Notes: generated from the letters alone by a model not told the origin. Shown: positions 1,235 through 62,253, numbered from the whole stretch's first letter. The stretch: 62,253 bases of DNA, filler included, from Asterionella formosa (GCA_002256025.1; 16 parts of 16 records of this genome joined end to end with filler, not necessarily neighbours in it); one strand, 5' to 3'. Numbers and translations: made by a program.

Positions 1235-1299
1235 GGTGGTACCTGGTATACCGAATACAAGGAAACCCGTCCTGGTACGTGGGTACCAGAACAAGCTGC

Positions 1300-2273
1300 G
1301 GTATATGAGAAATGTAGCTCTGTTCTCCTCATAGAAAAAAACCGTCTTAGAAACAGTCATTGATCAAAGTATGGGTAAAGGTCAACCTACATATTGTCAG
1401 GATATAGGATCTGGCGAGAAACTGCAGAGAGGAACTTCGGTTTTTTAACTATGCTGAAAATAGTGGATTTTACCAGCCAGGCCGCAGTTTCTTGCCAAAA
1501 GTTAACTTATGGGGCTGTATGAAGAATACCTATGCTGTACTTAACTCTTCTTCAAACCCTGCCAACGTTGAGCTATCATTGTCAAAAAATTCGACAATAT
1601 TGGCCTTTCAATGGTCACCAAAATGTCAGAATCAGAATCATTAATTGCCAAAACATCACCATCAGAACAATGGTACTAGGCTTGTGCTAAACTTTTTAGT
1701 CGTGAAATCTTCTGTACAAAAAGTTCATTACCCGCTGTATTATTCGTCATATTCTGATTGGTTATACTTAAATCCATTCGATTGGCACAGTTTGCGAGGT
1801 CTCACAACCCCACCACGCCAGTCACACTAGATGCACCTGCAGCATTTTCTTGGGAGTTTGCCGATGCTACTACTCGTATACTGGTATCCACTACCTTGTA
1901 CCTGGTATGGAGTACCGTAGGAATACTAATTACCTGGTACCTAATACCTGGTAGACCTACTGGTAGGATCATCATTGGTCATAGTAGGAGCATATGCTTA
2001 CCAGGACACTAGTAGGATGCACATTCAAAAAAAAATCGGAGCCGCTGGGTTGTACATATGACACATATTTGTTGATCGGAGTAGGTATAGTACCGGTAGA
2101 GTAGCTATATATACATTTAGCAATGTATATGTACTTACATGCTAATTTCCACCACTGGTGATTTAAATATTTCAAATGGAATCATTGATATTCGAGATTA
2201 GCAAATAAAAAGTTTTCGCCAGCCCTAAGCAATATTTTAATTTTTGCCTGGGGTTCAAATGCAAGAACCTTAA
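1300..2273 (-). mobile_element. Truncated copy of TTAA-flanked non-autonomous TIR element (family A; Kolobok-like)
   Basis: Ends in GGGGTTCAAATGCAAGAACC-TTAA (TTAA 2270-2273). Several blocks are the reverse complement of 26467-27450, e.g. 1570-1650 vs 27190-27290 and 2140-2269 vs 26467-26600. Confidence 0.7.
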
Positions 2274-3249
2274 CTGGTGCAACTCCAAAGTTACCAGTCA
2301 TAAATGGCTTTGAGCCAAGGTATTATAAGCATTATCGTTTTCCATCAAATTCTATATTTATGTTAACATCAATCCCCTCCTCGCCCTTCCACATAATTTT
2401 AGTAGTTAGTTCATTAAGCTACATGAGAATTGGATTTTTTACTTGAACATATAGTATTAGCGAATTGAGATCTAGCTAAGAGAATGGCTTAGTGGTTTAT
2501 CACATTGCCTTTGATCTGAGGTTGTGAGGCTTGGTCCCTGCAATTTTTGAGAAGCTATTGTTAGGTTTGACTCCCACACTCCTTGTTACCATCCTGCATG
2601 GTCTTGCCTGGTGGTGTGAAAGAAATAATGGGTTGCCCCCCCCCCCTAGTAGCTAGTACACCAAGCAGCTTGTGCCACCTTCCTAGGCAGTCAGACTTTC
2701 CCCTAAAGCTGTGGCTAACCTTTCACGGAAGGCGGTTGGGGGACTCACCTACGCTAACAAGCAAAACTACTACTAGGGAATCTCAGGTCTTGTCAGCAGG
2801 TAGCACCAGGCCATGAAATACTTGGGCAGCCATCAAGCGATCCATCCATATTCCAACTGAAACGTTCGACGTTGGACCAAGGCCCCATGCTATAACTAGT
2901 AGCAAGTTGTGCTGCCCTCTGGTCAATTTTTATTTTCCTCCAAACCTCATCTTGTAGCACTTCTTCCAAGGAAATACTTTCCGCATTATTATCATTCTTT
3001 GCACCTGCTGTTCGATCAAGTTTTACAATTTTTAATAGTGCTAGTATTTGAATGGATCTTCTCAGATTCCCCGCTAATATGATGAAGGATCCGATCATAC
3101 ACATTGACAAAAGACTTCATGCCATCGGGACTGTAGTAAAGAAACATTGCTACTTCACTACTGTCTTGCCCCTTTGTAGTACTGATTGAGACGACAAGGT
3201 TGACAAACTTGAGATTTGGGTCCTCATTCGGTCAATTTCCTTGGGAAAC

Positions 3250-4106
3250 ACCAGCATAGTCTGGTGGTAAAGGTACCAGTCGGGTTAGTGCTTGGCTATG
3301 CGAAAGGATTGGACAGCCAATCAGTGTGGGAAGATTAAATGTGACCTGAAAAACTTTCGCCTATTTCGGGAATGTGATTGCTCATATGACGATTTAGATA
3401 AACCATCAATCAAATGATCTCCTGTCAGGCAAGTTGGTTACACCGCCTTACTTGGAATGAACGACAAATCACTAATGGATGCCTTGTATCAGCATTTTAT
3501 CACACCTTGCTGGCATGCTTTGGATTCTGGTGGAGATCCATTGGGAATCAATGGCCATATCCCACCTGAAAAGTTGCATTGTTCAATAAATGACGGTGTA
3601 TGCCTTATCTCATTACTATTCTGTTCTCGGTAAAGTTCGGCACGGTTACCTCTGCTCAAAGTTTGAAAAATAGAACCGCTTTTAATAAATTGTTTATATC
3701 AGTGTCAAAAATGATGCAACATCAAGAAAATCGACCGGTATTTGCCAAGCAAGGTGCAATTTTAATGATGGATTCCATGGTTGTTGCTCAAAGATTACAG
3801 GAAATGAAACAGTGGGGATGATGCTTTTTGCGTTTTTGTCAATGTCTACTGACACCGGAATCAAGCTCTACAAGAAGGACAAGCTTGGAGTGTCAATGCA
3901 GAACATAAAAAGACATCCAAATGATATTCGATGGCATGGTGTTTTATAGTGAATAAGAAAATTTTAGAGCACTACGCTTTTAATAAACTCGACTAAGTGT
4001 GGAGGTTGGTAGGTCGCACAGGGGCGCGGAGAGCCCCACGGAATTTAAGTGTGGAGATCAGATTGTTTCGGAAGGGCGACAGGGGGGGGGGGGGGGGGGG
4101 GGGGGA

Positions 4107-4178
<72 letters not shown>

Positions 4179-7928: not shown

Positions 7929-8126
7929 TGAAGTATCTTACTAGAAGTAGTAGTATTTGTTGAATATATGAGCTTATTAGTTAATCCTTGCATGCAACTC
8001 GTTTTCTAAGTCGACTCCAAAGTATACAATAGGTGGTAGTCGAGTTTTCTCATTATTGAGTTCTGAAATATATGATATAACTCCTCTAACCCTATATACA
8101 TTTGTATTGATGTGCGGGATCGCCCA
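7929..8126 (-). repeat. Isolated (solo-like) LTR of the gypsy family seen at 1040-1234
   Basis: TGAAGTATCTTACTAGAAGTAGTAGTATTTGTTGAATATATGAGCTTATT... is the reverse complement of the 3' end of the LTR at 1040-1234, and homology spans its full length. No clean TSD is seen. Confidence 0.8.
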
Positions 8127-8367
8127 CATGGTACCTGGTACCCTGTACCCTGCCTGGTGGTACCCTGGTACCTGGTACGGTCACAGATAGCAGCAAGTTG
8201 CGGTGATTGTGCTGATTGTAAATGTTAAGCTATCTTTATCCAATATTTTATTGTTTATTTAAGCTAAATGACCGCAACTTGCAGGCACCGGGAGGTCATC
8301 CTGTTACTACCGGTAGTCCGGAGTATTAGGTACCAGGTAGTAACCCTGGCACGGAGTGCTGGAGACA

Positions 8368-9243
8368 GGTACCAGTAAAAACTGCATTGATAATGACCCA
8401 CTGTTTTATCCCATTCGTTTGATTAGTTCGACTAAAACTTAGGTCCCATCTCTCTGAAATCTGTTCGGAAGTATTAATGGCATAAGGCGTCGGTGCATAA
8501 GCATCCTTTTCCTAGTTAAATTGAACATCTGGTTCAGGAGATATTTATATACATCTAGACGTAAAATTCAGTCTCAGTGGGTCAATGCAATATATGAAAT
8601 TTTTCACATACCTGGAAGTAATTTTATATTCGTTGGTGAACACGGATTATCCTGTTTGGTTCACAGCGAAAAGACATAAAATGCATTATGCTCCATACAT
8701 GATACCGGTACATTGTACAGGTACCGGTACATGGTACCATTCCTGGTACCTGGTACGGTACCTGGTACTAGGTACAATAGATGTACAGTATCACTTTTGT
8801 GCACAGCCATGGGTACATATTTATAGGTACCAGGCACCAGGTACCTGGTACTCCGTACCACTTATAATGGTCTGCCTACATAGATACTGGTATCATACCG
8901 CTGCACCGGGTTTCATCAATTTTTATTTACTGAATTATTATTGACAAGGTTATGGATAAGACATAAAATGCGAGAAATTTATATTCATCGTTGTACACAA
9001 TATAAGATGAGAACTCCAAACTTGGGATAATCCGTGCTTTTCACCTTTTTTTCCCGATCGCCACTTTTGACCTAAATTAACGAAAGATCGACGTCCAATC
9101 GGTTGAGAACTAACAGTATGACTCCATCCGGTATATGCACAATATACATTCTGGAGCTTAAGAAATAGAAAATGAATGATTTTTCATAACAAAACGTGTT
9201 TTTTAATGCCGTCAGTGGGTCAATGCAGTTTTTTACTGGTACC
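8368..9243. mobile_element. MITE/foldback-like element with terminal and internal inverted repeats
   Basis: GGTACCAGTAAAAACTGCATTGA (8368-8390) pairs with TCAATGCAGTTTTTTACTGGTACC (9220-9243). A second inverted pair is GGTGAA-CACGGATTATCC..TTTGG (~8635-8659) with CCAAAC..GGATAATCCGTG..TTCACC (~9016-9045). Confidence 0.55.
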
Positions 9244-9862
9244 AGTTAGCTGGAACGTTCGCTAATCGAGATATTTACCTTTATCTTTGCTGAAGTAAGA
9301 AAACGTGTTTCACTCACCATCGTCCTGATGGTGAGGCATTCCCGGGTACCTGGCACTGTACGTCATCGATCTGGTTGTCAGTATCAGCACCACGTACCTT
9401 GCACCTGTACCTGGTTCATTCATCATGAACAGTGGCGGTGGTTTGTTCCCAGGAGACGGAATAGGGACTGGTTTTCACGACACGATACCGGTCGTGAATT
9501 ATGGATAGGGTAAGAGGCACGACAAGTATATTTACTGGTACTGGTACCAGTACCGGCATCTGACAAATAAATACCGGCACACACGTCCAGTGCACAGAGT
9601 TTATACATTTATATAAATGACTCAAATCCATCTAGACTCTAGTCATGCAGCTAGTACTTGTCGTGATTGATGACCGTGACTATCCCGGGAAGTTTCTTGC
9701 TGCTTTTGCAAAAGCGTGGACGAAGTGCCCGAACAAAAGGCTTGTTTGTCACTCACAAAAACGCTAAGCAAGAAAGGCAGTCACAGAAAACACACTTCTC
9801 ACTTTAACTACTCGCCTTCCCTTCTCACAACTTCCATCAAATAATCTCACAACTCAATCAAC

Positions 9863-10723: not shown

Positions 10724-13700
10724 TCGATGTGTAACTGTATAACTGTATCATAAGAATAGAGCTAATTTATACCCAAATCAACATTGTACCATCTATTAGA
10801 TCACAGATACAGGCAATGTTCGCCAAAATGCTAGGGAGCTATCAGTTATTGACTCTTTACGAATTATGCGAGGCGTTGACGTTCAGTTTACCAACAAGTC
10901 AATGTACGATTCACCACAATTTAGGTGAGCTATCATGAAAATTCAAGGCTAGCAGCAGCCTTTTCTTCTGATCAGCTGTCCACCTGATCCAACAAACAAG
11001 TTTACATTTAGAGCATACACCTAAAACAGGAAGCAAGCGGCTGCTTTTATGGACATACCAGTAAGAAGCTGCCGTTGCTTCAGTACGGTAGTTGGTGCCC
11101 CGGTTCCAATACCGGAACCGGGAGGTGGTAATACACGACCGCCGCCTCACAACAATCCAGCGAAGAAGTGCCAAGAACAGCAAGTTGGGGTCATTTTGCT
11201 GAAATGGAAGGCGTGACGCAGGATAGGGCAGTTGAAAAATACGAACAAATGTATCACCACTTAGTGACGTAGGTTTTATGCTTGTTATTTTCTTCGGCAA
11301 TTGGCTGAAAAAAGAAAATGAGAATGACCGATGCGGAAGGAGGGTGACCTGAAGCAAAAGTAAGAAAGGATTGCAAGTCTTGCTTAGTTTGCTTCATTCT
11401 CTCCAAACTCAAAATTAATCTCCTTTTCTGGCGAACTAATTCAAACAACCTGAGGTAGCAATTGTAAGAGCGAGCTTTTGCAAATATTAACCGGTATTTA
11501 GGTTAGATCATTCGTTTTTAGTATACATATATACCAGTATAATAATAGTACAGAGTACAGAATAGCGTTACTGGTAGTGATCGTGAGTGGCTTGAGAATG
11601 TTGCATCATGTTTGTCTCAGCCTTGACAATGACGAAAATAATGAATATCTCCATGAAAAATGAGAACGACACTTTGTTATTGGGTAAATATATTAAGCAC
11701 AATATAGGCAATAAAAATTTAAAAGAATCATTGTAATCACACTAATATTGACAATAAAAATCAAATTTGCCAATCTTAATGATCAGAGCTTTTGCTTCAC
11801 GAAATGTCATGCCAAAAAGTGATGTTGCAACTATACATGAACAGAGGGAGTACTTACATATGACAGTATGAATGAATTCAGCCATGATGCTGATTCTAAT
11901 AGTTTTTTGATTTTTTCACCTTGCACTGGGAGAACAAAAGTTAAGTCTACGAAAAAGCAATGAATGGAGGTAGCCCCAAACAGGAGTATCACACAAACGA
12001 CAAAGTAAGCAACTAATCATACCACGATAGCAATTCTATTATCAGCCCATAATGCTCACTGAGATAGCTTCTACATATACCACTCACCACAGATTTTTGA
12101 TCATTGTGGTGATAAATGCCATTATCATGCATTTTTCATTTGACATCAGCCAAATGACAAATGTTACCAGAACTATGAATCAGCAAATGCAAGAGAGGTT
12201 ATTCGACATTTATGACATGTAACACATGAATGCACCTTTTAATTTTGAATGACTCAATTGAGTTAGTTGAATGAGCGAACGTGAGTGCTTGAATACTTCA
12301 AAAATGGCTGAAAAAAGGTATGGATAATTGTAGTGAACAATCACCTCCTAACAGGTAGTATCCTTCAACAAGAATGCATATATTTTTTGAAGTATGGCTG
12401 CGTTCTTTTTTTGAAAATAGGCGAACGACAAAAAGTAATTGGCAATTATTTGGCTCAAAATTGCTTCGTGAAGTAGATTTATCAAACTTTACATTGCTTA
12501 TGCTCACATCTGTGTACTCCAAAGGCTTGTTTATGCTAATTTTTTTCAGATTTTGCTCTTTGTTTTCTTGTGTTGCCTTGACTAATGCAGTGCTCTTCAT
12601 TGTAGATACTTGTGCCACCAGTGCTACAACTTCAGTTTTGTTTCATTTCATTTGGTTTCTTGAACTCATTAGCTAGCATTAACTCCATCATTTCTATCCC
12701 TTGTCTTTGATGAACACATTTGACACTAAACACATGTTCCAATTAAGTGTCTGAAAACAGAAAGTTATTTTAGTTTTTTATGCTTTTCTTTTTGGACTCC
12801 TTGTCAGATTCCAGAGGGTCGTGGTAAATTTATGGTGCGCAACCAAAAATAGTAAGTGATTCTGCGGAACTTTCAGGGAGATTGCCTGTTGGCCACAGCA
12901 GATGACGCATACGTGCAATGATTACGGTCATGATGAAGGGATTGATGCAGCATCCGGAGGAAACCAGCATGGATGAAGGATGAATTTGGAGGACAGTGAC
13001 AGGAGTGCTGTGGTTTATAGTGCCGTAATTATGGTGGGATGAAGAATGGCTAGGATTGAGGTTGGCTACTAATTGGACGCCCATGGGCGGTGAAACGCAA
13101 GCTGGGAATCCCGGTTGACAGTGATGGGGACGCACAGCATAAAAATTTCAGATCCAGTAGTGGGAATAATTCTCAGCAAAGCTGATTATGGGAGTGGCAT
13201 TACTAGGCTTACTAGGAGTAGACTTTGAGAGAGCAGGGATAGGGATCAGGACTTGGAGTATCCCTGGGAAGTGGTCATCTTGCGGTATCTCTCAATGAGT
13301 GTAAGCGAAAACCAACAGACTCAGGCATACAGATTTTTTTTTCTTGGTGTGAATGTCAAAAATGTATCTTTGCTTTCATAGAAGGAAGTGAATGGACTGA
13401 TTTTGGATGGTATTCGTCGGGTTAGCTAAGTATGTCATGGAAACAAGCTTTTTTGAACCATCAACCCACCGTCTGAAACGAAATAAGAAACGCATTGTCG
13501 AGTGTCTGAAGGAAAATGATAAGTTACCATGGGAAGAACGGAATTCTTTCATACGTTTTTGTTCCCTATTTAAGAAATTAAAAATGGGAAGAAATCCCGA
13601 CTTGACTTTACATTGGATGTCAAGGTTAATCCCTTTGTTACTTTCATTATAAAGGGAATGAAAGTAGTAATGCAGGGTATTCCGCTATCCAACAACTTCA

Positions 13701-14700: not shown

Positions 14701-15559
14701 GGAAATTCCAGTGAGGTTTCATGGGACAAGAAATGGCCGAGGATTTGAAAAGAATTTGAATCTTTGCTGTTGTTTCGTCATCATACGGCACACGATACAG
14801 TATAAATACTACCTTGTACTCCCTCCTTCCGGAAACAGTTGCATCAATTCGCCGGCACCACCAGTGTATTTACTGTTGTCATATGAATGATTACGTAGCC
14901 AACATACCATCTTTCTATGTAAGGATTGGCTTACTTGAAAAAATGCGTTGTTTATGAGTTACATAGATGTGAAAATAAACTCTATTTTTGTAATTAAATA
15001 ATTAGCATCTAAATTAATTAATTGAAACCAACTTAACATAAATATATTCATTGCATAAAAATTCATATCGCCAAATGCTGGTTTACATCGGCCAGTCACT
15101 CAAATGTTTGCGGGAAATCAAATACAACAAGCCACTATATTAATTATAGCATGAATAGAATAATTGTCGTTCGGTATACTTTCTACGGTTGTTGCACCTA
15201 TATGGACCATACCGCCGGAAATTTAACGGTTACAATCCTCTAAAGAAGCCTACTATCTATTTCGTCCCCGCCATCAGGTCCTTTTCGGAGGCTCCGTAAG
15301 CCATAATCCAACACAATTTGACGCTCTTCTGCAAGTTGTGGTTATTTTGCTTATTTGTGTACTCATTCCCAAAACCGATAAATATTCCCTGACTTGGCAG
15401 CCACTAAGAAATCAAAATATGAAACTTTTAAAGGCTTGCGCCCGCAGGCTGTATAAAGACGACTGGATAAAATTCGATAAATTCAGATAATTGGGAAAAA
15501 AGGTTCTGACAAATTTTATTTTATTTTGGGTTAAAGTATGTAAGGACTATGTTAGTTTC

Positions 15560-15730
15560 TTAAGGTTGCGGCCCTGGCTTAACCCAAGTTTGGAGAAAAT
15601 ATCGCTAGTAGGGCTGTAAAAACGGCGTGTAACAGAAAGTTTTCTAGTATGGATTCCCATGATTTGAGTGTGCATTTGAATATTTGAATTAAATAGGAAT
15701 CGGCAAGAGATTAATAGAGTTCCATTTTAA
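15560..15730 (+). mobile_element. Left end of TTAA-flanked TIR element family B
   Basis: TTAA-GGTTGCGGCCC followed by ~160 bp homologous to 27589-27735. Confidence 0.7.
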
Positions 15731-15979
15731 ACAAACAAAAATGATATTTATACATTTAAATTATATTAACATTGTATGTAGACATGATTTCGCTCCACGC
15801 CAAAACACATATATAAATCAGGAGTATGCCAACATGTATGCTCATTGTTCGTGTTCATACGTTATATTGAATCTTTGCTGCAGTATGTAGTTTCTATATT
15901 ACTCGATTCACAAAGGTATACATAAAAATCAGTTCGGTACCAGGTACCGAATTACCAGAGGAGTACTGGGATACTGGTT

Positions 15980-16696
15980 AAGTATGACTACCCAAAGGAA
16001 AGCATGTACATTTTGACCAAGACACATTGCGGTTTTCGAACTTCTGGCGCCCCTAAAGATTACATCGAGTCGCCAAGCTCGTTCCTTGCCTCATGTTTGG
16101 CTGGCAGTGGCTTGGTTCGATACCAACAGGGCAAGTCAACTTTAAGGGAAGGGGCATACTCAATCGATTTGGTAAAGAAAATTGTTCATCTTTTGCGAAA
16201 CCCATTTGACAATGCAGTGTCTCGTTTTCATCTCGCGAAGAAACACAATCGATCAAACACAGCCCTCCTCCCGTTGTCCAAAGAGGGCTTCCGAGAGTTT
16301 TGCAATATGAATGGTCAAAGGTGGAAAGAAGCTGAGCTTGCTGCCGCGGCGTGGGACAATGGCGTGCTTGATATAATGAAGGACATCCCATGCTATTCAG
16401 ATTTTTATCGCTATGCAAACTGGCATAATCTTGCATTTGCCGTCACCAAAGACCTCAATCTGCCAGAGTATGTCTTGCACTATGAGGACTTTGAGTCAAG
16501 GTTTGAAGAGACAAAGGCTGAACTCTTGGATTTTTTGCAATTAGAAGTGAATGGAGATGACTTTCCATTTATCCCAGGCAAGGAGTATTCAAACTACTTT
16601 ACTGTCAAAGAGCAACGCACGCTGAAGATGGCAATGAAGATGTTGTCCTTCAAAACGACATGGCAAAATATTGAACACTATTTTGATGGCATGTAA
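15980..16696 (+). pseudogene. 5'-truncated, intronless sulfotransferase-like paralog
   Basis: YILTKTHCG, VHLLRNPFDNAVSRFHL, PCYSDFYRYANWH and VLHYEDF align with the gene at 19987-21193. It lacks the N-terminal SFPNSGTS PAPS-binding motif, and homology stops at ~15980. Confidence 0.75.
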
Positions 16697-19209: not shown

Positions 19210-19986
19210 GGCTGATTGATTGGTTCGCTGATAGATCGAGTGCAGATTGATGACTATGAATAGTTTACTCCCTTATTTATAGCGAGGAGCGGAGCGAAGC
19301 AAAGCAAAGCAACAGACTGCTGTACTATCGTAAATGCGAAGTATGTATCTCAGTATCATCATCTACTAATGGGAAGAATTATCAATAGTCTTCCTCTCCA
19401 TCTGTACCTGGTATCACCTGGTACCCGGTAGCAATAATCGCAGAAAACATTAGGTAGTGTTCTTAACGGTACATCATCTCGTCAAAGAATTTAGCCTCGC
19501 CTTTAGCATCGGCACACTGATGAACGTACATGCCGGTAATATTCCCGATGGTGCGTGCAAGCAAGTTTATACCGTATATACAAATACTGTCGTAAGTAGC
19601 GGCAGTGTGGCAGCTGAATGTTTTGAACAAAAGCTAGTACCACGGTACCTGGTACCTGGTTTCTTTTTATTCTACACGTATAATGAATGCATACCCGTAC
19701 CAGGGATACTACCTGGTACCAGTACTAGTACCAGTACCAGGTTCCAGGTACCGTATACTGACACCCTTTACTCTGTCCATTCTTCACTATTGTGGTGCTT
19801 CGACGTATTCCCAAACATTTCCATTCAAGGAGTTTCATCTTGGAGTAGACTCGATTGGCGAAATGCAAGGTGACAGCAATCCTTCGTGATGACTAATGCC
19901 GTAACGCAACGTGGACCGGTCCAACTTCCGACTCGCGCTCCTCATCCTCATGGTGTCATGAACAATGTTACATAAAACAGCAGAAA

Positions 19987-24204: not shown

Positions 24205-26466
24205 CTTTTCAGAAGCAATGTTGATGGTGAAATTATGATTAAAGATTCTGTTGCTTACGCCACAAGATGCAGTTGTAACGGCAAGATTGTCGTCTTCGTC
24301 AATTTTTCTTACTGTGTTCCCGTTTACGAGAAAGTGAGACCAAGATGCAGGATCCATAATTTTTCGTGATGCGTTATGAAAGAATTGTAACACGATAACA
24401 AGTACCGTAGTTCGTAGGAAAGATTTGCCACGATGATAATGGATTGTAGATGATGACAAATGACAACGAAATACAGTTCACCGTGATGTCGACAAAGCGA
24501 ACAAACAAGCAGCAACGATCGGGGCCACGTAGAAGTGCACAAAAAAATTGTACCAAAAATTCAAATCAGTTTGATTTTAAAAAATGTTAGAATCGAAAAA
24601 TGCCACGAGAAAGGGTCAAAACAAAAACAACAAACATAATCAAAGATTGAACCGAAAAATGTATTCGGAACGCACAAGAGAAAAAACATATGGAAACAGA
24701 ATGAGAAAATTTAGTGTTAGTAAAATCGTTCGAGAAAAGCGAATCAACATCGTTGAAAGTATTGCCAGCAATCGAGCCAAGAAAGTATTTATATTGGGGC
24801 CCAAAGCAGCTATCACAATCAACTCAGATTCTACACATGTGTGCACAATTAAGGTAGGGTCGAACATCGCCTAGAAAGAAGACTTGGCCTCACTTAAGCG
24901 TTTAACTCAGGTGGGGTTGTCTAGTCGGCATACACATTCCAAGGCATCCGCACAGGGTAGTGTTCCAATCTGGACATTTCTCTAAATGCTCCGTTTAAGC
25001 ATTTCTTTTCCTCGTTCGCTTCGTAAACATTCATCGACACTTACACTTTGGGGTTTGTGTTGTAATCGTTACAAGAAGCTTCCTCGACTTTACAATAAAA
25101 ACATGACACGAAGGAAATCAATGATTGGATGTTGCGAGCTTCGACTCCATACACAATCCTGATCACCGTTGCGCCTGTCCATTGTATGCGACAGCCCGAC
25201 AAAGAGAAGCCATAGTAACTTATGCATCCCGCTAGATGTTTCGATACTCGTTATTCATTTAAAGCGCCAAATTTTCGACACTTGATATTGTATTCATGGA
25301 TATTCAAACGAACGGAAACTTGTTGGACTTTAAACCTATATACTGTCTCGACATAATTAAAATTTAACGTCTGGTTCGCGCCGGATCGGATGTGGACGAA
25401 ATATCATCCTTGTGAAAACTTGAATTTTGTATCGTAGGCGGGCCTGTGAAATTTGATTAGATCGGACCAAATAAATTTATTTTGAAAGGGCGAACTTTAA
25501 AGGGCAATTCCCACAGAGCATGTCCTTCACGCAAACGAATATCGATATTGCCATTACCAGTAAATGATTCGTGTCCAAATTCGTGCTGTACACGTCACCA
25601 ATTGGAGCGACGATTTGATTCGAGCACCCAGTACCTACTCTATGTTCTGGTATTACTCGAATCATGTGCGGATGTAGATATCAAGAATGAAATAGAATGT
25701 AGGAGTACTGGTACATGCATACTAATTCTATTACCGGTAAATACATCCAGTACTGTACCAGGTCCTAACCTTCCAGTTTTACTAGCCCCCCATACACTAT
25801 AATAGTACAGTATTGCAATCCTGTCGTTATAGGTGGTGGTACCTGGTACCAGGTACCAGTTACCAGCGTACCGTAGATGTCACTACTTCTATCATGTCCA
25901 AGATGCCCGTGACCGATAATACAGATTGCACACCTGATGCATGGTACTCATGGCAATGGTAATGTAAAAACAGTACCAATCCCAGCTGCTGTTATCAGTA
26001 CCAAGTACCACTATGAATGCTGCACACGCAATCGAACCTTCACACGACCACTTCTTGTGATAAGCAATGGTTGCTTGGTAACACGACCCATCAGGCAAGT
26101 CAGTCGTACGAGCATTTGGTCGTGCTGAGAAGCTCTGGTAACGATGGGTCGTGCACTTTATGGCGCAAAATATCTACTTGCAACAATATTTACCGGTAGT
26201 TGTGTACACTCCTTACCTGGTTACCAGCAAGTTGCGATCATTTTGCTTAAATAAACAATTTAATACATTTAGCCGCTTCACAATTACCGCAACCTGCAGG
26301 TTGACGGAAACTGTTTACGGACCCGCGTTCAAACTTTGAGTGACCTTTTTTGAATTCATAGTTACCCATCTGGTCCTCGGTTTAGAAACTACCGGTATGG
26401 ATGTGTATATACCGTAGACTAACGGTACCTGGTACGTACTATAAGTAATGGTGCCACCGTTATTAA

Positions 26467-27588
26467 GGTATTTGAAAACCTAGGCAAAAATTAAAAAATT
26501 GCTTAGGGTTGCCAAAATTCCCTGGAAATAAGAATTTAATTAGCTTATTTTTTAAAGACGTGATTCCATTTGATATATTTAAATCAGTGGAAATTTGCGA
26601 ATACGTACATAGATTCCTTGTCGAAATCGCTAAATATATACCGGTATAGAAACACTCTCTCTCGCTGCATGTATATATATACCCTAAAATGCGATCAACA
26701 TAGATTCATGGACACTCTATACTCCGATTAACGTTCTTACACCGGTATGCTCTATTCATTGAATCCGTTCGTCATTTGCAAATCACGTAGTATATATATG
26801 TATTTAGATTCTAAATCGCTTGATGTGCACATACTCGTACTACAATCTATGCTCCGATCGACGACTTTGTGTCATGTATACGACTGGGCGGCTTGGCAAA
26901 TATTTGAATGTGCACTCAAGGAGCGGTACGCGTATGTACAATGATGATCATCTACTGGTACCCGTCCTGAATTTAAAACCGGACTGTCAGTACAACCAAG
27001 AAAATGTTACATGTTCATCAAATGTGGCCGGCGTGGGTTTGCAAAACCTCGCAAACCAAGCCAATCAAACAGAGGAATGTAATTCACGTTCACCAATCAT
27101 ATTATATATGTGGAAGCGGGCACTTACAATGGAATTTTTTGGACAGGAGATTTTGGGACCAAAAATTCCGGCACACGACTACCATTCCGATGATGACGTT
27201 TCGGCACTTAATAACTCTGATTCCAATATTTTGGCGACCGTAGAAAAGGCCGATTTTGTCGAGTTTTTGGACGACGATAGCTAAACGTTGGCTGGGTCTG
27301 ACGGCGATTTAGATACGTCGGTAACTTTCAAATACCGGTAGCATCAGTATGGAACTTCTGGCGAGAACCTGCAGAAAGGATCCTATATCCTGACGAAACA
27401 TGAAGTGGACCTACACCCTACTTTGTCCGAAGACTGTTTTTAAGCATATTGAAAGGGTGTCTATTGGTGAAAGCGCTGTTGAGCGTTATACATATTTAAT
27501 TTGTATGCGGAAAGTATGTGTTTGATAAGTCTGACTCAATATTATTTTATTAACCCTACCTCGAGCTAGGGGTTCAAATGCAGCAACC
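26467..27588 (+). mobile_element. Non-autonomous TIR element family A flanked by TTAA (Kolobok-like)
   Basis: Left end TTAA(26463-26466)-GGTATTTGAAAACCTAGG (decayed); right end CTAGGGGTTCAAATGCAGCAACC-TTAA(27589-27592). Homologous to 1300-2273. Confidence 0.65.
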
Positions 27589-27592
27589 TTAA

Positions 27593-28100
27593 GGTTGCGG
27601 CCATCGGCTTAACGCTAGGGTTGTAAAAACGGCATGGAACAGGGAGTTTGCTGCTATGAGTTCCCATGATTCGAGTGTCCCTTTAAATATTTGAATTAAA
27701 TAGGAGTCAGCGCCAGATAGATGAAGCTCCATTAAGAGATAGCTGTGTACACTATTACATCAGGAGTTAACTTCTAGAGAGAAGTGGCAGTTATGTATCG
27801 TAGATTTTTTGAAAAGCTTTGTAGCCCCTTTTTTGACTATTTTTGTGGTAGTTACAAATCCATGATACATAACTGCCGCTTCTCTCCAGAAATGGGGTCC
27901 TTACCATATCTGTATATAGATCATACCCCTAAGTCGAGCAATGACAGTATCGAAGCATTTGCAAAGTGGTCATAATGGTGAAAGCTCATTTTACCTTTAA
28001 CTATTATAATTAGTTGCACGTGATGTGTGGATTGAGGTACATCATAAAAATATTTTAGGAAAAAACGGACCTCGCAATTTGTAACTGCGGGGCCGCAACC
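27593..28100 (+). mobile_element. Non-autonomous TIR element family B flanked by TTAA (Kolobok-like MITE), 508 bp
   Basis: TTAA-GGTTGCGGCC...GGCCGCAACC-TTAA (27589-27602 and 28091-28104). A second left end lies at 15560. Confidence 0.78.
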
Positions 28101-28489
28101 TTAAGCTATGTAATCCTGCATATATCTTACGATTTCCTCCACTCCTACATAGTACCTGGTACCTGGTACGAGGTACCAGGTAACAGGGTACGTGTATGGG
28201 GGGAATAGACCATTGTATATATTAGAGTACTTAATGTGAAGTCACCATGAGTACATATACTTTTGCACTATATTACAGTAAATAGAGGACCAAGTCTATT
28301 ACTGGTAGGTATGTCTATGTGTAATATACATATAACGGAAATGATGTGAAAACAATCAATGTGTAGCTACATATATTGAAAAAAAGTGAAAAAATAATGT
28401 AACTACAGTAGTATGAAATCATGCATCTGTGTGATAATAATCTGAATAAATTCTAGCTGTGTATGACCACCAGGGTGATGATCAGCAGA

Positions 28490-28770
28490 TATCAATTGAT
28501 TGGCAATCTAATCTGTGGCACTGTTCTATCTGGAATATATACCTCATACATTTTGTCAATTTTCAATGTGGCAGTGAAAAGAATGCAGCTCAAAGTAGGG
28601 TAGTCATCATTTCGCACACAACGCTTTGCCAAGCAACAATGCTCCACCTTTCTTACTCTATCCTGCACAACCCATGTAACATTTTTAGCCACCTTACAAA
28701 CCTAGTTCCAACTTTGCATTCCTACCAAAGAACAAATAGTTCTTGGTGTAAGAGAAAGATTATAATACTG
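28490..28770 (-). pseudogene. Degenerate GCR1_C-like domain, as found in Crypton-type elements
   Basis: Broken frames read ELFVLW*E..VG...KVAKNVT...RKV...IDKMYEVY, resembling the LW.EY..G.GG.KAAK.FT...IDKIYEVY pattern. Recognised by eye only. Confidence 0.4.
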
Positions 28771-29269
28771 ACAGAATTGCTTTCTCGTCCCTCCTACCTC
28801 TTTGATGCACATCCTGCATCATTTCTTTTGGTTCATCAACTTGTTAATTCTTGAAAACTTCTTTCTGGACTCTCAATCATCATTCTGAACACTTGTCACT
28901 CCTGCTACCACCAATAATACTAGTAGTCAGAAGTCAAAGCTCCTCCAAGATGAGATTCGACTGGTTGATGTCATCCACCATACTTTCAAAACTAGGCGAC
29001 ATTGCATCTCGATCTGCTGGGAGTACAACCCAGCCAAGTGTATAGTTCCAAAAACAAACTGGCAGCTCAGACTTCCATCCTTCACCTGCTGTTGGTGTCC
29101 CATCATCACTCACACCTTCCTCTCCTTACCTGCAGGTAAGAAGTAGTCTACCGCTGCTGCATACCAAGTACCAGGTATCTGGTACCAATGGTACATGAGT
29201 GAGGATGCAGTTGAATTTTTGTGTACGACCGGTACCAGGTGGTACCTGCTACGAGTACACTCTAACGTC

Positions 29270-42330: not shown

Positions 42331-42437
42331 TACACTTGGCATGACCATGGTACCTGGTGCGCGGTACCAGGTACCAGGTACTCCGGTACCAGTACCAGTG
42401 TAAAATGCTACTGTATGCATTTACCGGGTAAGGCTGG

Positions 42438-45713: not shown

Positions 45714-46894
45714 TGGATACTTTAAATAATCNNNNNNNNNNNNNNNNNNNNNNNNNNNNNNNNNNNNNNNNNNNNTTAATTAATTAANNNNNNNNNNNNN
45801 NNNNNNNNNNNNNNNNNNNNNNNNNNNNNNNGCAAATGATAAACCAGTAATCTACTCGTATTCGTACTTGCGTACATCATACGATTGGTACCTGGTAACA
45901 ATGCATAGGGTCGTGTCATCACACAAGAATGATGTCAACATGTGACGATACGTACATATGATCTACGATCACATGTAAATGATGATAGCGGCGCGCCGGT
46001 ATCAAATGTAGTGTTATAGGGGAGTTCTTATCATTCAGCATTTTTCGCACAATGGGTTTTCATTTCCGGGTTTCGAGCAAAAAATGACAGTTGGTATCAA
46101 TTTTGGGTAACAGAACTACCTGGTATTGCTATCAGCAATGGCTACCCTAGTGGTATCAATGCAGCCATTCATACCAAATTGATACCTTTTTGACCACCTC
46201 CAAAAACAGTATCAGTGATACTGGCTAATTCAGATGTGTATTATTTCTATTGTCACTGATAGAATAACCGAAAATAAGCCTGCAGGGCACTAATTTTAAT
46301 GACATGCAAACATGTGTGTGCATCAATACAACAAATATCCGGCTTGATTCTAGACAACCTGCCACTGCCTTTGATCAGCCGTCATTATATTCAAAGTAGT
46401 AATGTTGTAGTATCAACCAGCAGAGCAGGTATATGGAAGAAATGAAAGCAAGGCAAATGGAACCAATCAGAGAAACAACGATTATTGATGCTGTGACCCC
46501 CAGCCATCTCAAGAAACCCGGCTCTCCCAACAAAACAATTCGCTTGTTACAGATGCTGAAGTCGATCAATTTTTTGGCTCCCTCATAATTCCTAATGACT
46601 TTGCTGAGCTTGATATTGATAGGAGACACCTGATTCTCATTAAGGGCATTGCAATGAAGCAGATTTCTGTTAAGCTTCTGCGGAAAAATTGCGTCAGATA
46701 CAAAGGTTCTGGATACAAAAATGCGAAGAAAGCGTTCACTGTTGGTTTGATTGTTCGACTTTTGAGTGAAAATGAAAGCAAAGACAATGACGACAAGAAT
46801 GAAAAAGAACAACAGCCAACAGCAGCAGAGGAACAACCATTGGTCATTGTATGCAACTATGATGATGATGATGATAATGACTGTACCGGATGAA

Positions 46895-49816: not shown

Positions 49817-52031
49817 CGGCGGGATACAACCTTCCTCGCTGTTTCCTAAGTCCAATGGTACCACCNNNNNNNNNNNNNNNNNNNNNNNNNNNNNNNNNNN
49901 NNNNNNNNNTTAATTAATTAANNNNNNNNNNNNNNNNNNNNNNNNNNNNNNNNNNNNNNNNNNNNTGAACGGGGGAGACAACAACAACAATTGGGTAAGG
50001 CTATACCTTTTATTGGAGGAACAAGATCTTAAACATTGTGGCACAATGGTGAGTACTGGTAATGCTGTACAAATGACAAAAACGAAAAATAGCTGTAGTA
50101 CTTCGTGCTTTTTACCAGTATGACCGGGACCATGGGTTCTGGTACATACCTGGTGCCATATTACCTGGTACCTGGTACCTGGTACCTTGTACCGGTCATA
50201 AGAAACAGCAGGTTGCTTACCGATAGATGGGAGGTCCCTGGTCTGGGACGAGGTACCTGGTACCAGGTACGAGACCAGTTCAGGTGCACCCATATCATTT
50301 ATTCATATCTTTTATATGTATATGGCTGGGTGCAATTTCTGGGGCCACGAGGTAAACCCCATTGGCCAAGTATAAGCAAAACCCCTGACCCTATGTATAT
50401 AATATTTTGCGCCTAAAAACCCTTCTTGTTAAAATCACATTGACCATGTTGGTATTATTCTGTTGGTTTATGTTAAAGTATTACCTTTTTGATAGATCTA
50501 TATCGTTAGACAAAGAAAACTATAGATAGTGACATTCATTTCTCTTTCCATTTCTATATTCTTATTGTGAGTTTACAAATCTAGTTTAGGTTGTTCTGTT
50601 TGAACAAACAAACAAACTATTCTCCAAATGCTGTTTGCATTTCTAGAAACATACAATCATAGATAGACACATATCTATCTCACACTTACTGATCATAGGT
50701 TTTTAAACATGATCATTCATTTTCAAACTATCGGTCTTCTGAAATAGCTTATATTGTCCGGCTCATTATAGGCAGAGTAACAACATAAAATGTGTGGTTG
50801 ATGAGAGTTTGGTACGTCAAATTTGACTCATTCGAATCGTTCGACTCGTTTGACTCAGAGTCATAACTACGTAGATAAGCTCACTTTAACAGGTTTGCAC
50901 AACAAATTTACAACCTCCTGTGCCCCTTGATTTATCAACATAATCACCATGATCAGTGCTATCAGTTAAGGCATCAAGCGGCACCGGAGCACATAATTTC
51001 GTTTCTATATAGGACCTATTTAGTGTTTAGCATGTCAAATCCATGCCTACATGACCAACCAATTCATGTGCAAATACTCTTGAGCTTGACAGTGGTGGAC
51101 TGTCTGGAATTGAAAATGTACAGGGATGCATCAAATGTGGTCCTATAGCAGATACAATGAGGCTATTATAACAACGATTTCCCAACCATTACTGTGCAAT
51201 GGACTTCAATTTCAAGTTCATCATGACTGAACTCAAACATGACAACAGCGAGATTGGATGATAAAAAAATAGTTAAATACATACATAAAATTTCTTCATA
51301 TTTATGTTATTTTTGTACAAAATTTTACTTACATTAAAATTATGTTCCACTCCTGATAGCTACGGTGGCTAGCAGTACCTAATGTAGTTTCAGGATGCAC
51401 CCAAGAACCATGGGGTTATCTGTAGAGCAGGTGCTTCTTGCTGAAGGCAATTCCCGCTTCAACTATTGTCTTGACATTCCGTTACTTTTAAAGCAATTTT
51501 TATTTATGGGCAATATGGGGCACATCGAAGTTTTTGGCATGAAAATTGCCGATTTTAGCATGACAGCCAGAATAAAGGTAATAGTAGAAATGGCAAAACA
51601 AGCGTAAAAAATACAAGAATAATTGTAACATGCAACATCAATGAAAATTGAACATGATGATTGGAGCAACCAAAGTATAAAATGCGATGTAATAAATAGC
51701 GTCCAAAATGAGAATTAGCTGAAAAAAAGCACAATGGTGGTACTACTGGAAGATCTCACTGCCAAGAACCAACAACACAAGGCATAATGATAATCACATC
51801 TACAATTTCATGAAGAAATACATTGTTAGCATAATACTACTTCTTTACATTGTAGCTTCAATGGCGATTTGATTGTTTGATTGATTGTCGACTAGAAATA
51901 GTTCAGCTTTACTTGTGAATACTATGACATANNNNNNNNNNNNNNNNNNNNNNNNNNNNNNNNNNNNNNNNNNNNTTAATTAATTAANNNNNNNNNNNNN
52001 NNNNNNNNNNNNNNNNNNNNNNNNNNNNNNN

Positions 52032-53997: not shown

Positions 53998-54097
53998 NNN
54001 NNNNNNNNNNNNNNNNNNNNNNNNNNNNNNNNNNNNNNNNNTTAATTAATTAANNNNNNNNNNNNNNNNNNNNNNNNNNNNNNNNNNNNNNNNNNNN

Positions 54098-58019: not shown

Positions 58020-58760
58020 GGTTGTTGGATATTCTCCGTATAATAACAATCAGGTGGAGTCCACTGAGATTCTGCCCTTGTTGTGAAGATATGTACGATA
58101 CGATGGGTACCTGGTACCAGGTACCCNNNNNNNNNNNNNNNNNNNNNNNNNNNNNNNNNNNNNNNNNNNNTTAATTAATTAANNNNNNNNNNNNNNNNNN
58201 NNNNNNNNNNNNNNNNNNNNNNNNNNTAGTGGTCCACTTTTTAGTCTTAAAGTTTCAGAAAGGGCAATTTAGTAAACAGTGAGGATTTGACCGAGAATGG
58301 TCAATTATGGGAAGCAAGCTCCCCTGTTGTCGCTCCTCGAGTATTGGAAATAAATGTTATTTTGTTCTCAAGTCATTGGAAGCAATGTTGTTGCTCTGAC
58401 ATCTATATTTGCTCTCCGTGATTCATGACTTGAATGGGCCTAGAAACTGACAAGCGAAAACATTATTGAGCGTGAGGGCATTGTTGCCCTGGTTTATTTT
58501 ATTGTTTTTGACTTAAAAATCTACGTTCTGATGAAATCATTGTCATTGTGATGTGCGTGAAAACAACTTGTACGTTGAGTCAAAGGTATCGGCACAGCAA
58601 AGATTTAGATGCAACTGGAAATCAAGTGCAAAAAAAGTATAGACAAACTGGTCCAACCAATGAGGTGATATAAACAAGATAATGTTGAGAATTCAGAGTA
58701 GCCATGAGCGATCCTTTTAAGGGTGGACCTTGAACTTCTACTTAAAACATGACGAAAAAG

Positions 58761-59819: not shown

Positions 59820-60349
59820 TGTTGACGCTGTCTTCCTTCACGGATTTTGAATGATTTGTTATGTAGACTAGCAAGTTAGTGTGTTCAACTGTTGTTGTGT
59901 CCACAAAGTATTGTGTTCGAAACGAACGTTGATCGCGACAAGTCGCTAGGTTACTTACTACAACACACTGTCGTTGTATATTAAAATTACTCTTCTGGTA
60001 TGATCTATGCTGTAGATTTTACTAATTCCTACTTCCGATAATTCTTCATGCAGGACGACCAGAAAGGAAGAAAAACCTTCCATGGGATACCTTGGACGGA
60101 GGGCTGAAATTGTGTCATACTATCCCCTGGTGAGAAATCCTTGTCAATGAGTATCAAACTACTGAGGAGTTTTTGTACCAGGTACCGGAGNNNNNNNNNN
60201 NNNNNNNNNNNNNNNNNNNNNNNNNNNNNNNNNNTTAATTAATTAANNNNNNNNNNNNNNNNNNNNNNNNNNNNNNNNNNNNNNNNNNNNAACGCATGAA
60301 TTGCTATTTGTAATGAATTATAAAAGGGCTTGATTGTGTGCTTGTTACT

Positions 60350-60680
60350 TGCTTGTTGATCACGAACTTACTCTGCAAACGCTGTTCTTTGTCTACAGAC
60401 AATCAATCTGTTGAGCGAGAGATTTGTTGGGAATCAGGCTGCGGCATGGTAGCTAAGCACAACGAAAATGACGCCTTTGTAACGATTTTTTGTTCATGAA
60501 CTCACTCTGCAATTGTTGTTCACTAATCACAGACAATCATATGATCAGGGCTGGGTTGGCCATTGGGGAACATGGTAAGGAGCACAGCAGAACCGAAATC
60601 ATGGCTTAGTAACTTTTTTTCTCATCAACTCACTCTGCAAATGTTTCCCTCCTTTCTACAAAAGACAATCAATCCAAGCA
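60350..60680 (+). repeat. Three degenerate tandem units of ~130-135 bp
   Basis: AACT(T/C)ACTCTGCAA...AGACAATCA recurs at ~60365, ~60499 and ~60627. Confidence 0.7.
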
Positions 60681-62253
60681 ATGAGAATGAGCAGCCAGCT
60701 CATTTGCTATGAATTGATCTACCGGTAGTAGTAACAGGGATTCCTGCAAGTACTATGAGTAGCCAAGCAATCTTGCGATTAGTTACAGCATCCAGCTGCA
60801 AGAATGAACATCCATTGCTTTTCGTATTGGTTTGAGAATCACGTTCTATAGAAAGTATCAATATATACTATATAGCGAAGCAATTAATTTGATTGTTTTG
60901 CGATTGTAGAATGAAATTGAAAAAATGAATTGGCTACACATAATTATTTGTTTGACTAGCATATATATTTGTTTAACCTTGAGGTATTAATGTGATCAAA
61001 GTAAAGATAAAATGGGAGCAAACTAACAGAATTAATGGCAGTCAGAGTGAAGAATATTTGTGAACGGAAATGTTGCGAATTGTAGAGAAAAGTACCGTAT
61101 TATAGAGATTATTACTGAACAAATTTTTCTTCGTGTCGCCAGAAAATAGTGTCAGTTGGCCCCAAAAATTATGTGGGTTTCTAAAATAATTTTGGAAGTT
61201 GTCGAAACTATTTTAGTTCACTCCGTCCCTATATGTTGTATGATGCATCATATTTTTTGTGATGTCATACCCTTAAATTATGTACGTGGCTAAATTCGTC
61301 ATATTGGGCCACCCAAATAATTAATTTGGGTTATCATATTTGACTAGCGTTTTTTTGTGGCGGCTGTACCAGTAATCGGCGTTGTAGATGTACTGCTACT
61401 GGTGTCAGGCTACTACAGCGATGCGCATGGTTGCAGCAACCAGACCATTGACGCTAAATAACGATGCAGGTCTACATTGGGTTGAGCTTTTCTTCTTCTT
61501 CTTTCGGTCTTCGATTGTATGGCGATGGAAAGTCAATGTTGCCTGTGTAAGTACTACAATGATTCACAATGCATAGCTATGTCTCCATTGGAACTCTTAT
61601 TTTTTATTTCATTTCTAACCCAAATTTTTTTCTTTTTCTCATTTGATGCTACTTATTACATTACATTTCATACTTTGGTTGCTCCAAACATCATGTTCAA
61701 TTTTCATTGATGTTGGATGTTGCAATCATTCTCGTGTGTTTTACGCTTGTTGTACCATCTCTATGCATATTACCGTTATTCTGGTTGTCATCCTAAAATC
61801 GGCAATTTTACTGCCGAAAAATTCGATGTGCCCCATATTGCCCTTAAATAAAAATTACTTAGAGCCTTAAAATTACTTAGAAGTACCCGAATGGCAAGAC
61901 GATAGCTGGAGCGGGAATTGCTTCAACATTACCATGTAATCGGACTAAAATAATTTGAGTCGTAACATGGGGTAAAATAAGGATGACTCTCAGTTTTTAG
62001 GTGGTACCAGGTACCATCACGAAGAAGATGACTTTTGCTGGCTGTCCCAACTTGAGGAGCATAATAAGCCTGTCGGTACCAGTAGCAAATGGCACGATGT
62101 TGATATGCTGCGACAATATCGGTAATGCGCCACGATGCCTCCGTTAACTGATAGTCAACAAATATCTGTGATTATCCCATCCATTGTCGCTTGCTCCCTC
62201 TCAACCCTCGGCTCTGGATCCATCATCCACCTGACCCTGAAGCAGAAATTGCG

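What the first reader, a model, noticed from the sequence alone, without database searches (positions are those of the whole stretch)
1235..62045. Self-complementary (GGTACCW)n patches concentrated at junctions
Seen: about 20 intergenic patches built from GGTACC(A/T) units, e.g. TACCTGGTACCTGGTACCTGGTACC at ~50162. GGTACC and CCWGG are both palindromic, so the repeat reads the same on both strands and can fold back on itself. Patches start right after the gypsy LTR (1235) and the isolated LTR (8129), sit at the 5' truncation of the sulfotransferase paralog (~15937-15980), lie near both outer ends of the TTAA-element pair (26425, 28152), at the break of the SdrD-like fragment (42348) and at contig ends (58107, 60175). 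I saw no multi-unit patch inside intact CDSs. Inference: filler DNA made by self-primed or template-switch synthesis at breaks, a telomerase-like de novo addition, or a preferred TE target. I do not recognise it as a described satellite.
Basis: partly seen in the sequence, partly recalled or inferred. Interest (0 to 1): 0.7.

Follow-up and report, generated by a model that had tools for sequence, protein, structure and literature searches.

The report
Transposon scars doubling as landing pads
The GGTACC-rich patches in this diatom are tiny fixed-sequence insertions, most likely scars left by cut-and-paste jumping genes, that pile up in front of genes and then serve as exact landing sites for other, unrelated jumping genes.

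Summary
The patches are real: TACCWGGTA occurs 36 times in the window (0.33 expected) and 26,886 times in the genome (control 902), and independent samples hold them. They are not filler at breaks or telomere addition. Paralogous repeat copies show units added at a TA with the TA duplicated and both flanks intact; orientation is near random (45% mixed dimers) and not copied from the flanks. They lie upstream of genes (about 7-fold); closeness to repeat boundaries is not significant. Best reading (0.65): stacked Tc1/mariner-type excision footprints; each CCWGG unit makes two new preferred GG|TA|CC sites, so arrays grow. Resident CCG-ended pogo elements fit the sister unit CCGG; a resident Stowaway-like family has the same target context as CCWGG; the CCAG-ended source itself was not found. 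The junction link is mostly targeting: the window's Gypsy duplicates CCWGG (24 of 37 flanks) and a MITE duplicates CWG. The scan noted footprints and both targets before, on other pieces of this genome.

The parts
1..1013 (+). 3' end of Gypsy pol (integrase), frame broken near 729
   Evidence: ORFs; Pfam Integrase_H2C2 1e-10, rve 0.0075
1040..1234 (+). Gypsy 3' LTR; family lands in CCWGG-TACC; this copy's flank is the variant GGTGG-TACC
1238..1248 (.). TA-CCTGG-TA unit directly behind the LTR flank
1899..1953 (.). three TA-CCTGG-TA units
7929..8126 (-). Gypsy 5' LTR plus start of internal region (not a solo LTR); upstream flank CCATG inside an array
8130..8177 (.). array (CCTGG, CCCTGG-type units)
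8191..8284 (+). 88-bp MITE (8194-8281, TIR CAAGTTGCGG) with CAG duplicated on both sides
8329..8373 (.). units upstream of the cyclin-like gene at 9845
8720..8850 (.). mixed arrays (CCGG, CCTGG, CCAGG units)
11841..11853 (-). Stowaway-like end G-TA|CTCCCTCTG
14816..14830 (+). Stowaway-like end G-TA|CTCCCTCC
15560..15933 (+). left part of a TTAA-flanked element
15936..15948 (.). GGTACCAGGTACC patch, about 30 bp before the sulfotransferase junction
15978..15981 (.). TTAA at which contigs of three other samples stop matching the window (the real junction of the truncated sulfotransferase paralog)
   Evidence: table 8 (X2, X7, X11 records end at 15979 and run on)
19405..19752 (.). units and arrays between two divergent genes
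25838..25857 (.). array CCTGG-CCAGG; one other sample's contig across 25500-26049 is 7 letters shorter
   Evidence: inferred to be one unit; the gap itself was not displayed
26225..26299 (+). internally deleted MITE (26228-26296) with CAG duplicated
26424..26434 (.). single unit 29 bp from the TTAA of the element pair
26463..28104 (.). two adjacent TTAA-flanked elements (shared TTAA 27589-27592)
27333..27340 (.). de novo TA-CCGG-TA; paralogous copies have a plain TA (9 loci)
28152..29255 (+). fragment of a repeat with 40 or more copies, broken inside arrays at both ends (28153-28182, 29231-29246)
42349..42390 (.). array at the 5' edge of the SdrD-B-like ORF fragment; whether this is a break was not tested
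45887..45897 (.). single unit
50162..50269 (.). arrays CCTGG x3 and CCTGG-CCAGG
58106..58125 (.). array at a contig end, upstream of a minus-strand gene
60176..60186 (.). unit at a contig end, upstream of a cyclin-like gene
62003..62015 (.). unit in a GG-TA-CC site

Best explanation
The patches are stacked excision footprints of TA-targeting cut-and-paste transposons (Tc1/mariner superfamily), and they double as landing sites. Step 1 (shown): a fixed short word x is added at a TA and the TA is duplicated (TA -> TA-x-TA; x = CCGG, CCWGG, CCAGGG/CCCTGG, GC, C/G). Step 2 (shown as a sequence preference, growth inferred): CCWGG units prefer (G)G-TA-C(C); every new unit creates two such sites, so units pile up at one spot in random orientation, mainly upstream of genes. 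Step 3 (inferred): x is what stays of the element's two ends after excision. CCGG and CCSGG fit the resident pogo families with TA|CCG ends; CCWGG and CCAGGG need an element with CCAG...CTGG ends (4+1 and 4+2 letters), most likely a sister of the resident Stowaway-like family, which has the same GG|TA|CC context and whose own 4+1 word CTCCG is enriched. That source was not found. Step 4 (shown): finished units are the target of a Gypsy family (5-bp duplication CCWGG) and of a PHIS-like MITE family (3-bp duplication CWG); arrays also coincide with some fragment breaks. This makes patches look junction-bound.
For: Empty-TA paralogs among aligned sites: CCGG 22/58, CCWGG 7/25, GC 26/113, C/G 131/612, CCSGG 2/3, against controls A/T 19/768, CA/TG 8/286, CG 0/36, CAG/CTG 0/40. 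One repeat copy carries CCAGG, CCTGG (with MITE) and CCGG at a site that is a plain TA in four paralogs, flanks collinear. Homologous arrays of one repeat differ in number, type and order of units. Dimers: 3,074 same, 2,502 mixed orientation. W not set by flanks: 55 of 144 in exact 7-bp tandem vs 50.1 shuffled, p 0.13; outer-only deviation 20 vs shared 1. Pogo families with DDE_1, TIRs and TA duplication proven by empty paralogs. Context match: CCWGG G-1 79%, GG 57% vs Stowaway-like ends 290/385 and 197/385; CCGG 32%/12%, like pogo ends. CCAGGG 14 vs CCCAGG 2 points to CCAG ends. Footprint chemistry: PMC6943129 (passages).
Against: No TA|CCAG-ended element in about 1 Mb of fetched loci; PF13358, PF01359, PF01498 found nothing in the genome (weak searches). 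No site was seen in all three states (empty, element, footprint): 35 pogo flanks gave empties but no CCGG footprint. The 7 CCWGG empties are few independent events: 4 come from arrays of one family and the rest have unit-like letters next door. Canonical 3-letter footprints CAG/CTG show no empties (0/40) although a CAG-ended pogo is resident. About 27,000 CCWGG units is a very high load for one family. Dimers show a small same-orientation excess (55%) and a T-A over A-T bias (1,500 vs 1,002) that this model does not explain. GC has no candidate source. A 4-bp GTAC duplication plus CWG is not excluded.
Confidence: 0.65

Rival explanations
1. Templated repair or template switching: palindromic GGTACC lets a broken or slipping strand re-anneal on either strand and copy a neighbouring unit, so arrays grow without a CCAG-ended element.
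For: Patches fold back; all seen CCWGG gains have unit-like neighbours; 55% same-orientation dimers; fragment breaks inside arrays; a 7-letter length difference between samples over 25838.
Against: W is independent of flanks; inner GG is fixed where the outer flank is AG; 61 of 143 units have no unit-like neighbour; sister word CCGG appears at arbitrary TAs with no template; arrays stay short (100 singles, 17 dimers, 3 trimers, 1 tetramer). Probably a secondary contributor to gains and losses within arrays.
Confidence: 0.15
2. The resident CWG-MITE family (or the Gypsy integrase) makes its own targets: the MITE is really a TA-duplicating element with ends CCAG...CAGG whose excision leaves CCWGG.
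For: MITE flanks read TA-CCWG...CWGG-TA, about 1,550 ends in the genome, flank context equals the unit context; it would give exactly CCWGG.
Against: With the interior oriented, both CTG/CTG and CAG/CAG occur (9 and 6 of 22), none CAG/CTG; W is not clustered on a tree of 17 copies (6 changes vs 5.7 shuffled; tree poorly resolved); two elements are separated by CTG alone (L039) and one has CAG-CAG on its left (L047); longer family members also carry either W. All of this says 3-bp CWG duplication.
Confidence: 0.08
3. The motif is a host promoter element (protein-binding site) kept or spread by selection, and a host protein bound there tethers the three transposon types.
For: About 7-fold upstream bias; three unrelated element types aim at the same spot; TACCGGTA was listed as an over-represented promoter motif in the oomycete Phytophthora infestans (PMC3597505, passage).
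Against: Units arise inside dead repeats with TA duplication and differ between copies and samples; exact, centred duplications argue for direct sequence read-out. Not exclusive of the best explanation; function was not tested.
Confidence: 0.08
4. Telomerase-like addition or a library or assembly artefact.
For: Two patches end at contig ends.
Against: Internal insertions with intact flanks in both orientations; present in contigs of four independent runs and in metagenome contigs; contig-end proximity not significant. Chromosome ends were not examined.
Confidence: 0.01

Closest known systems
Canonical Tc1/mariner excision footprints (Sleeping Beauty TA-C[A/T]G-TA; PMC6943129, passages read)
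   Same: TA duplicated around 2-5 letters taken from the element's ends; middle letter A or T; fixed word independent of flank.
   Different: Here the words are CCWGG, CCGG, CCAGGG and others, at about 27,000 copies of CCWGG alone, stacked into arrays by a target preference that the footprint itself recreates; source element for CCWGG not found.
Stowaway MITEs / plant-type mariner (TA target, TIR CTCCCTC; Table 1 of PMC4423477, passages read)
   Same: Resident family with TA|CTCCCTC ends (385 ends) and the same GG|TA|CC context as the CCWGG units.
   Different: CTCCC ends predict CTCCG/CGGAG (10 vs 1.8 expected), not CCWGG; no transposase of it was obtained here.
NuwaI group of the PHIS superfamily (CWG duplication; PMC4482050, passages read)
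   Same: 3-bp CWG duplication, TIR element, MITE and 0.5-3.2-kb non-autonomous forms.
   Different: NuwaI was reported only from animals, TIRs usually start GGG (here CAAG); no matching transposase found.
Drosophila errantiviruses and derivatives, sequence-specific Gypsy integration (PMC5408687, PMC3276498, passages read)
   Same: Gypsy-type element with a palindromic target centred on its duplication.
   Different: 5-bp CCWGG duplication within GGTACCWGGTACC rather than 4-bp TATA/CGCG/ATAT; TG...CA LTR ends; a diatom. PMC5408687 calls such specificity exclusive to errantiviruses and their derivatives.
Microsatellite / minisatellite (7-bp unit)
   Same: Short head-to-tail units, length variation between copies and samples.
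   Different: 45% of dimers are in mixed orientation, unit types are mixed, arrays rarely exceed 3 units, and units arise singly at TA.

Membership tests
Tc1/mariner excision footprint | TA duplicated; empty paralog has a single TA | tested here: met
   (strong for CCGG, GC, C/G; few independent events for CCWGG)
Tc1/mariner excision footprint | inserted word is fixed and not copied from the flanks | tested here: met
Tc1/mariner excision footprint | word equals terminal letters of a resident TA element: CCGG, CCSGG | tested here: met
   pogo families with TA|CCG ends
Tc1/mariner excision footprint | word equals terminal letters of a resident TA element: CCWGG, CCAGGG | tested here: inconclusive
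   no TA|CCAG element in about 1 Mb sampled; genome not searchable whole for TIR pairs
Tc1/mariner excision footprint | same site seen filled, footprinted and empty | tested here: inconclusive
   35 pogo flanks gave empty paralogs only
Tc1/mariner excision footprint | footprint produced by transposase activity | not testable with these tools
   needs an excision assay
NuwaI / PHIS (the MITE) | 3-bp CWG target duplication | tested here: met
   21 of 34 matched, 0 CAG/CTG; clean empty allele not found
NuwaI / PHIS (the MITE) | TIR starting GGG (usual in NuwaI) | tested here: not met
   TIR starts CAAGTTGCGG
NuwaI / PHIS (the MITE) | autonomous partner with DDE_Tnp_4 transposase and Myb/SANT protein | tested here: inconclusive
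   150 PF13359 matches in the genome; the two families whose ends were read have other TIRs and AT-rich duplications; a 3.2-kb member has no long ORF. Filed as NuwaI-like by behaviour only.
Sequence-specific Gypsy (errantivirus-like behaviour) | fixed palindromic target centred on the duplication | tested here: met
   24 of 37 flanks CCWGG; three two-sided duplications
Errantivirus membership | AGT/AnT LTR ends, env or descent from the gypsy/ZAM/Idefix clades | tested here: not met
   LTR ends are TG...CA; phylogeny and env not tested
Slippage microsatellite | neighbouring units identical and same orientation | tested here: not met
   2,502 of 5,576 dimers mixed
Telomere repeat / de novo telomere | one-strand polarity at ends, flank lost on one side | tested here: not met
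   chromosome ends themselves not examined

The most novel reading that the evidence does not exclude
A footprint ratchet has written a new, abundant promoter-side sequence class de novo, and at least three unrelated mobile lineages (a Gypsy, a PHIS-like family, a Stowaway-like mariner) have converged on it as a shared safe landing pad, possibly through one host protein that binds it; the arrays are then an ordered record of past transposition and a steady source of regulatory variation.
Probability: 0.3. Interest if true: 0.8.

Novelty: new variant of a known kind. Interest (0 to 1): 0.55.

Why it matters
Excision footprints are known from single loci and assays; here they form a major mutation class (69 of 500 short indels between paralogs could be written TA->TA-x-TA) and build promoter-side arrays. 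The arrays are exact targets of a Gypsy element, a behaviour described as confined to Drosophila errantiviruses (PMC5408687), and of a CWG-duplicating family otherwise reported from animals (PMC4482050). A 13-bp-specific LTR integrase and a self-renewing target are directly testable and of possible use for targeted insertion in diatoms. I found no paper on the motif: searches for the exact words (3 papers, none on this), for diatom/TE/footprint/mariner, footprints/overrepresented/TA, GTAC duplication (0), pogo footprints and TACAGTA footprints; the library lacks most subscription journals and Repbase was not searchable.

Tried and rejected
1. MITE as a TA-duplicating source of the units (my first idea): rejected, duplication is CWG. 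2. CCWGG as CpG decay of CCSGG: rejected, CCCAG 3 vs CCWGG 101 in 260 kb; CCAG/CTGG as decay of CCGG remains likely (both states at one homologous site). 3. 6-bp GGTACC duplication plus one letter: rejected. 4. 7-bp tandem duplication of flanks: no support. 5. Abundant PHIS transposases as partner of the MITE: the two families read have other ends; one is merely nested in a MITE or in a longer CWG element. 6. Search for Tc1/mariner transposases by PF13358, PF01359, PF01498 and by short protein motifs in held loci: nothing; these are weak, since a resident pogo protein itself scores on PF13358 in a direct scan. 7. The 28152-29255 block as an element bounded by arrays: rejected, other copies run on through the arrays. 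8. Empty alleles of MITE insertions: only one informative case, and it cannot tell the order of events. 9. The laying of four runs was dominated by repeats; it showed presence and spanning contigs but not the letters of array differences. 10. The Harbinger3_DR paper was not held; its CWG target is recalled only and not used as evidence. 11. The 2.6-kb Stowaway-like candidate element was not read, so whether its relatives include CCAG ends is open. CCWGG methylation was not testable.
Full report
Setting. The window is diatom-like DNA (cyclin, sulfotransferase, copia and gypsy ORFs; 'diatom' is my reading of these ORFs). Places 1-31244 are one contig of the own genome G000 (68.4 Mb, 15,436 contigs); the rest is 15 contigs of about 2 kb joined by N spacers.

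Observation. The patches are there. The basic unit is TACCWGGTA: 36 in the window against 0.33 in shuffles, 26,886 in the genome against 902 for the reversed pattern. It has relatives: in a 456-kb sample (40 fetched 7.6-10-kb stretches plus the window; the stretches were picked from contigs known to hold the motif or a transposase match, so not at random) TA-x-TA occurs with x = CCGG 151 (3.6 expected), CCWGG 147 (4.1), CCAG/CTGG 118 (18.5), CCAGGG/CCCTGG 22 (0.8), CCSGG 14 (1.3), CTCCG/CGGAG 10 (1.8). Units avoid ORFs (4 of 147; ORFs cover 32%) and lie upstream of genes: 81 in 67.9 kb within 1 kb before ORF starts, 11 in 62.7 kb behind ORF ends (97 ORFs of 200 aa or more; introns ignored). 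Closeness to repeat boundaries is not significant on its own (6 of 24 patches within 50 bp, 4.4 expected, p 0.27); with contig ends added and 100 bp allowed it is 13 vs 8.0, p 0.03. Contigs from four runs of four studies cover the region; records span the patches at 9238-9548, 19405-19752 and 25838, so this is not a library artefact.

How units arise. All-against-all alignment of 201 held sequences (971 kb, partly overlapping) shows paralogous repeat copies with a plain TA where another has TA-x-TA: CCGG 22 of 58 aligned sites, CCWGG 7 of 25, GC 26 of 113, C/G 131 of 612, CCSGG 2 of 3; controls A/T 19 of 768, CA/TG 8 of 286, AC/GT 3 of 119, CC/GG 3 of 84, CG 0 of 36, CAG/CTG 0 of 40, CCAGGG 0 of 3. 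These are sequence contexts, not independent events; 4 of the CCWGG rows are arrays of one family. Polarity is clear where many copies are empty and one is filled (37, 9 and 9 empty loci for three CCGG sites, one of them window 27333). In one repeat, four paralogs read TTTGAG-TA-CTCTGAC and a fifth carries CCAGG, CCTGG (holding a MITE) and CCGG at that TA with collinear flanks and one extra G. In the repeat family of window 28152-29255 (40 matches scored) three homologous arrays differ between 7 copies each in number, type and order of units. One other sample's contig over 25500-26049 is 7 letters shorter, which would be one unit, though the gap was not displayed.

Not slippage or flank copying. 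Genome-wide dimers are 3,074 same-orientation, 1,500 T-then-A and 1,002 A-then-T: 45% mixed, where slippage gives none. W does not follow the flanks (55 of 144 units inside an exact 7-bp tandem, 50.1 with W shuffled, p 0.13). Where the outer flank is AG-TA, the inner copy stays GG-TA (20 outer-only, 1 shared, 1 inner-only), so a 6-bp duplication is out; a 4-bp GTAC duplication with CWG between is not excluded. CCWGG is not CpG decay of CCSGG (CCCAG 3 vs 101).

Two target contexts, two sources. CCGG units have near-background flanks (G before TA 32%, GG 12%), CCWGG and CCAGGG units do not (79% and 57%; 77% and 55%), including isolated ones. The genome holds pogo-type elements (93 PF03184 matches) in families with TA|CCGTAAAACC, TA|CCGTATACTT and TA|CAGTGAAACC ends; the first has at least nine near-identical copies, 18 of 19 ends preceded by TA without further preference, and empty paralogs prove the TA duplication. 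CCG ends give CC+GG and CCG+GG, the words seen. By the rule that Tc1/mariner footprints are the first or last letters of the element between two TAs (PMC6943129, passages), CCWGG and CCAGGG need CCAG...CTGG ends (CCAGGG 14 vs CCCAGG 2, CCATGG 1). Their own 4+1 word CTCCG is enriched and G-flanked. I infer a CCAG-ended sister of this family as the source. It was not found in about 1 Mb nor by three family searches. Because each CCWGG unit leaves GG-TA on its right and TA-CC on its left, it doubles the preferred sites: a ratchet. That step is inferred from the preference and the array structure.

Why patches sit at junctions. The window's Gypsy family (710 matches to the LTR 3' end) is site-specific. 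I read 60 of the first 67 listed ends (6 skipped as already held, 1 at a contig end): 23 continue into internal sequence, and 24 of the 37 genomic flanks begin with CCWGG (20 CCAGG, 4 CCTGG), 23 of these followed by TA; 13 flanks differ, several by one letter. One full-length and two solo-LTR copies have the same CCWGG on both sides. The window's own copies have variant flanks (GGTGG-TACC at 1235; CCATG at 8127). An 88-bp MITE (781+770 end matches) duplicates CWG inside the unit: 21 of 34 copies CTG/CTG or CAG/CAG, none CAG/CTG, 13 with decayed ends; both types occur with the interior oriented and are not clustered on a poorly resolved tree of 17 copies. This matches the NuwaI duplication (PMC4482050, passages) but not its usual GGG ends, and no partner transposase was found. 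Arrays also coincide with both breaks of the 28152-29255 fragment. The sulfotransferase junction is at the TTAA of 15978-15981, where contigs of three other samples stop matching and run on, about 30 bp from the patch. The patches by the TTAA pair lie 29 and 49 bp outside it.

Verdict. Observation real; junction claim mostly explained by targeting; filler and telomerase not supported as origin. Best explanation stacked footprints that serve as landing pads (0.65); templated repair 0.15, self-made targets 0.08, host promoter element 0.08. Papers were seen as passages (PMC4482050, PMC4423477, PMC3597505, PMC3276498, PMC6943129, PMC5408687, PMC6850418) or as search listings; no supplements were opened, and those of PMC4482050 may list stramenopile CWG families. 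The scan's earlier notes on other pieces of this genome already describe the footprints, the CWG MITE and the Gypsy target; I reached these readings before seeing the notes, except the promoter test and the plant-type mariner lead.

Noticed in passing
window 7878-7928 (minus) and 23 fetched LTR ends: The Gypsy 5' LTR is followed by CTTTGAATTCAAAAAGAG, which does not look like a tRNA primer site and can fold on itself; possible self-priming as in Tf1 (recalled).
   Followed up: no
Gypsy flanks: Orientation bias in the target: CCAGG 20 vs CCTGG 4 on the element's sense strand.
   Followed up: no
L090-L110 (G000, about 40 contig ends): Very young PIF/Harbinger family, TIR GGGTCGTTC, TWA-like duplication, intact 425-aa transposase in L081.
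   Followed up: partly
L134-L143, L151, L156: Young pogo family of 2.46 kb with near-identical copies; probably active.
   Followed up: partly
genome sample: TA->TAGCTA and TA->TACTA/TAGTA insertions are frequent; no G-ended TA element was found for GC.
   Followed up: partly
paralog alignments: 3- and 4-letter indels (171 and 86 of 500) outnumber 2- and 5-letter ones; many 4-letter ones are tandem duplications.
   Followed up: no
window 15978-15981: Three other samples carry different, apparently unique sequence upstream of this TTAA: the 5' truncation of the sulfotransferase paralog may be strain-specific or an assembly join.
   Followed up: partly
window 35895-37500 and 52457-54041, decayed copy near 3400-5450: Two near-identical transposase-like ORF pairs without Pfam match; they resemble Plavaka-type proteins by recall only.
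   Followed up: no
window 37505-39574: ORF of four 159-aa repeats (477-bp period), resembling iota-type carbonic anhydrase by recall.
   Followed up: no
window 4082-4184: 103-bp poly-G tract.
   Followed up: no
L186:8602-9434 and MITE TIR: The subterminal part of the Stowaway-like TIR (AATTGCGTCAATTTGC) resembles the CWG-MITE TIR (AGTTGCGGTCATTTTGC); chance or shared binding motif unknown.
   Followed up: no
window 26463-28104, 15560-15933: TTAA-flanked non-autonomous families that often insert into each other's TTAA.
   Followed up: partly
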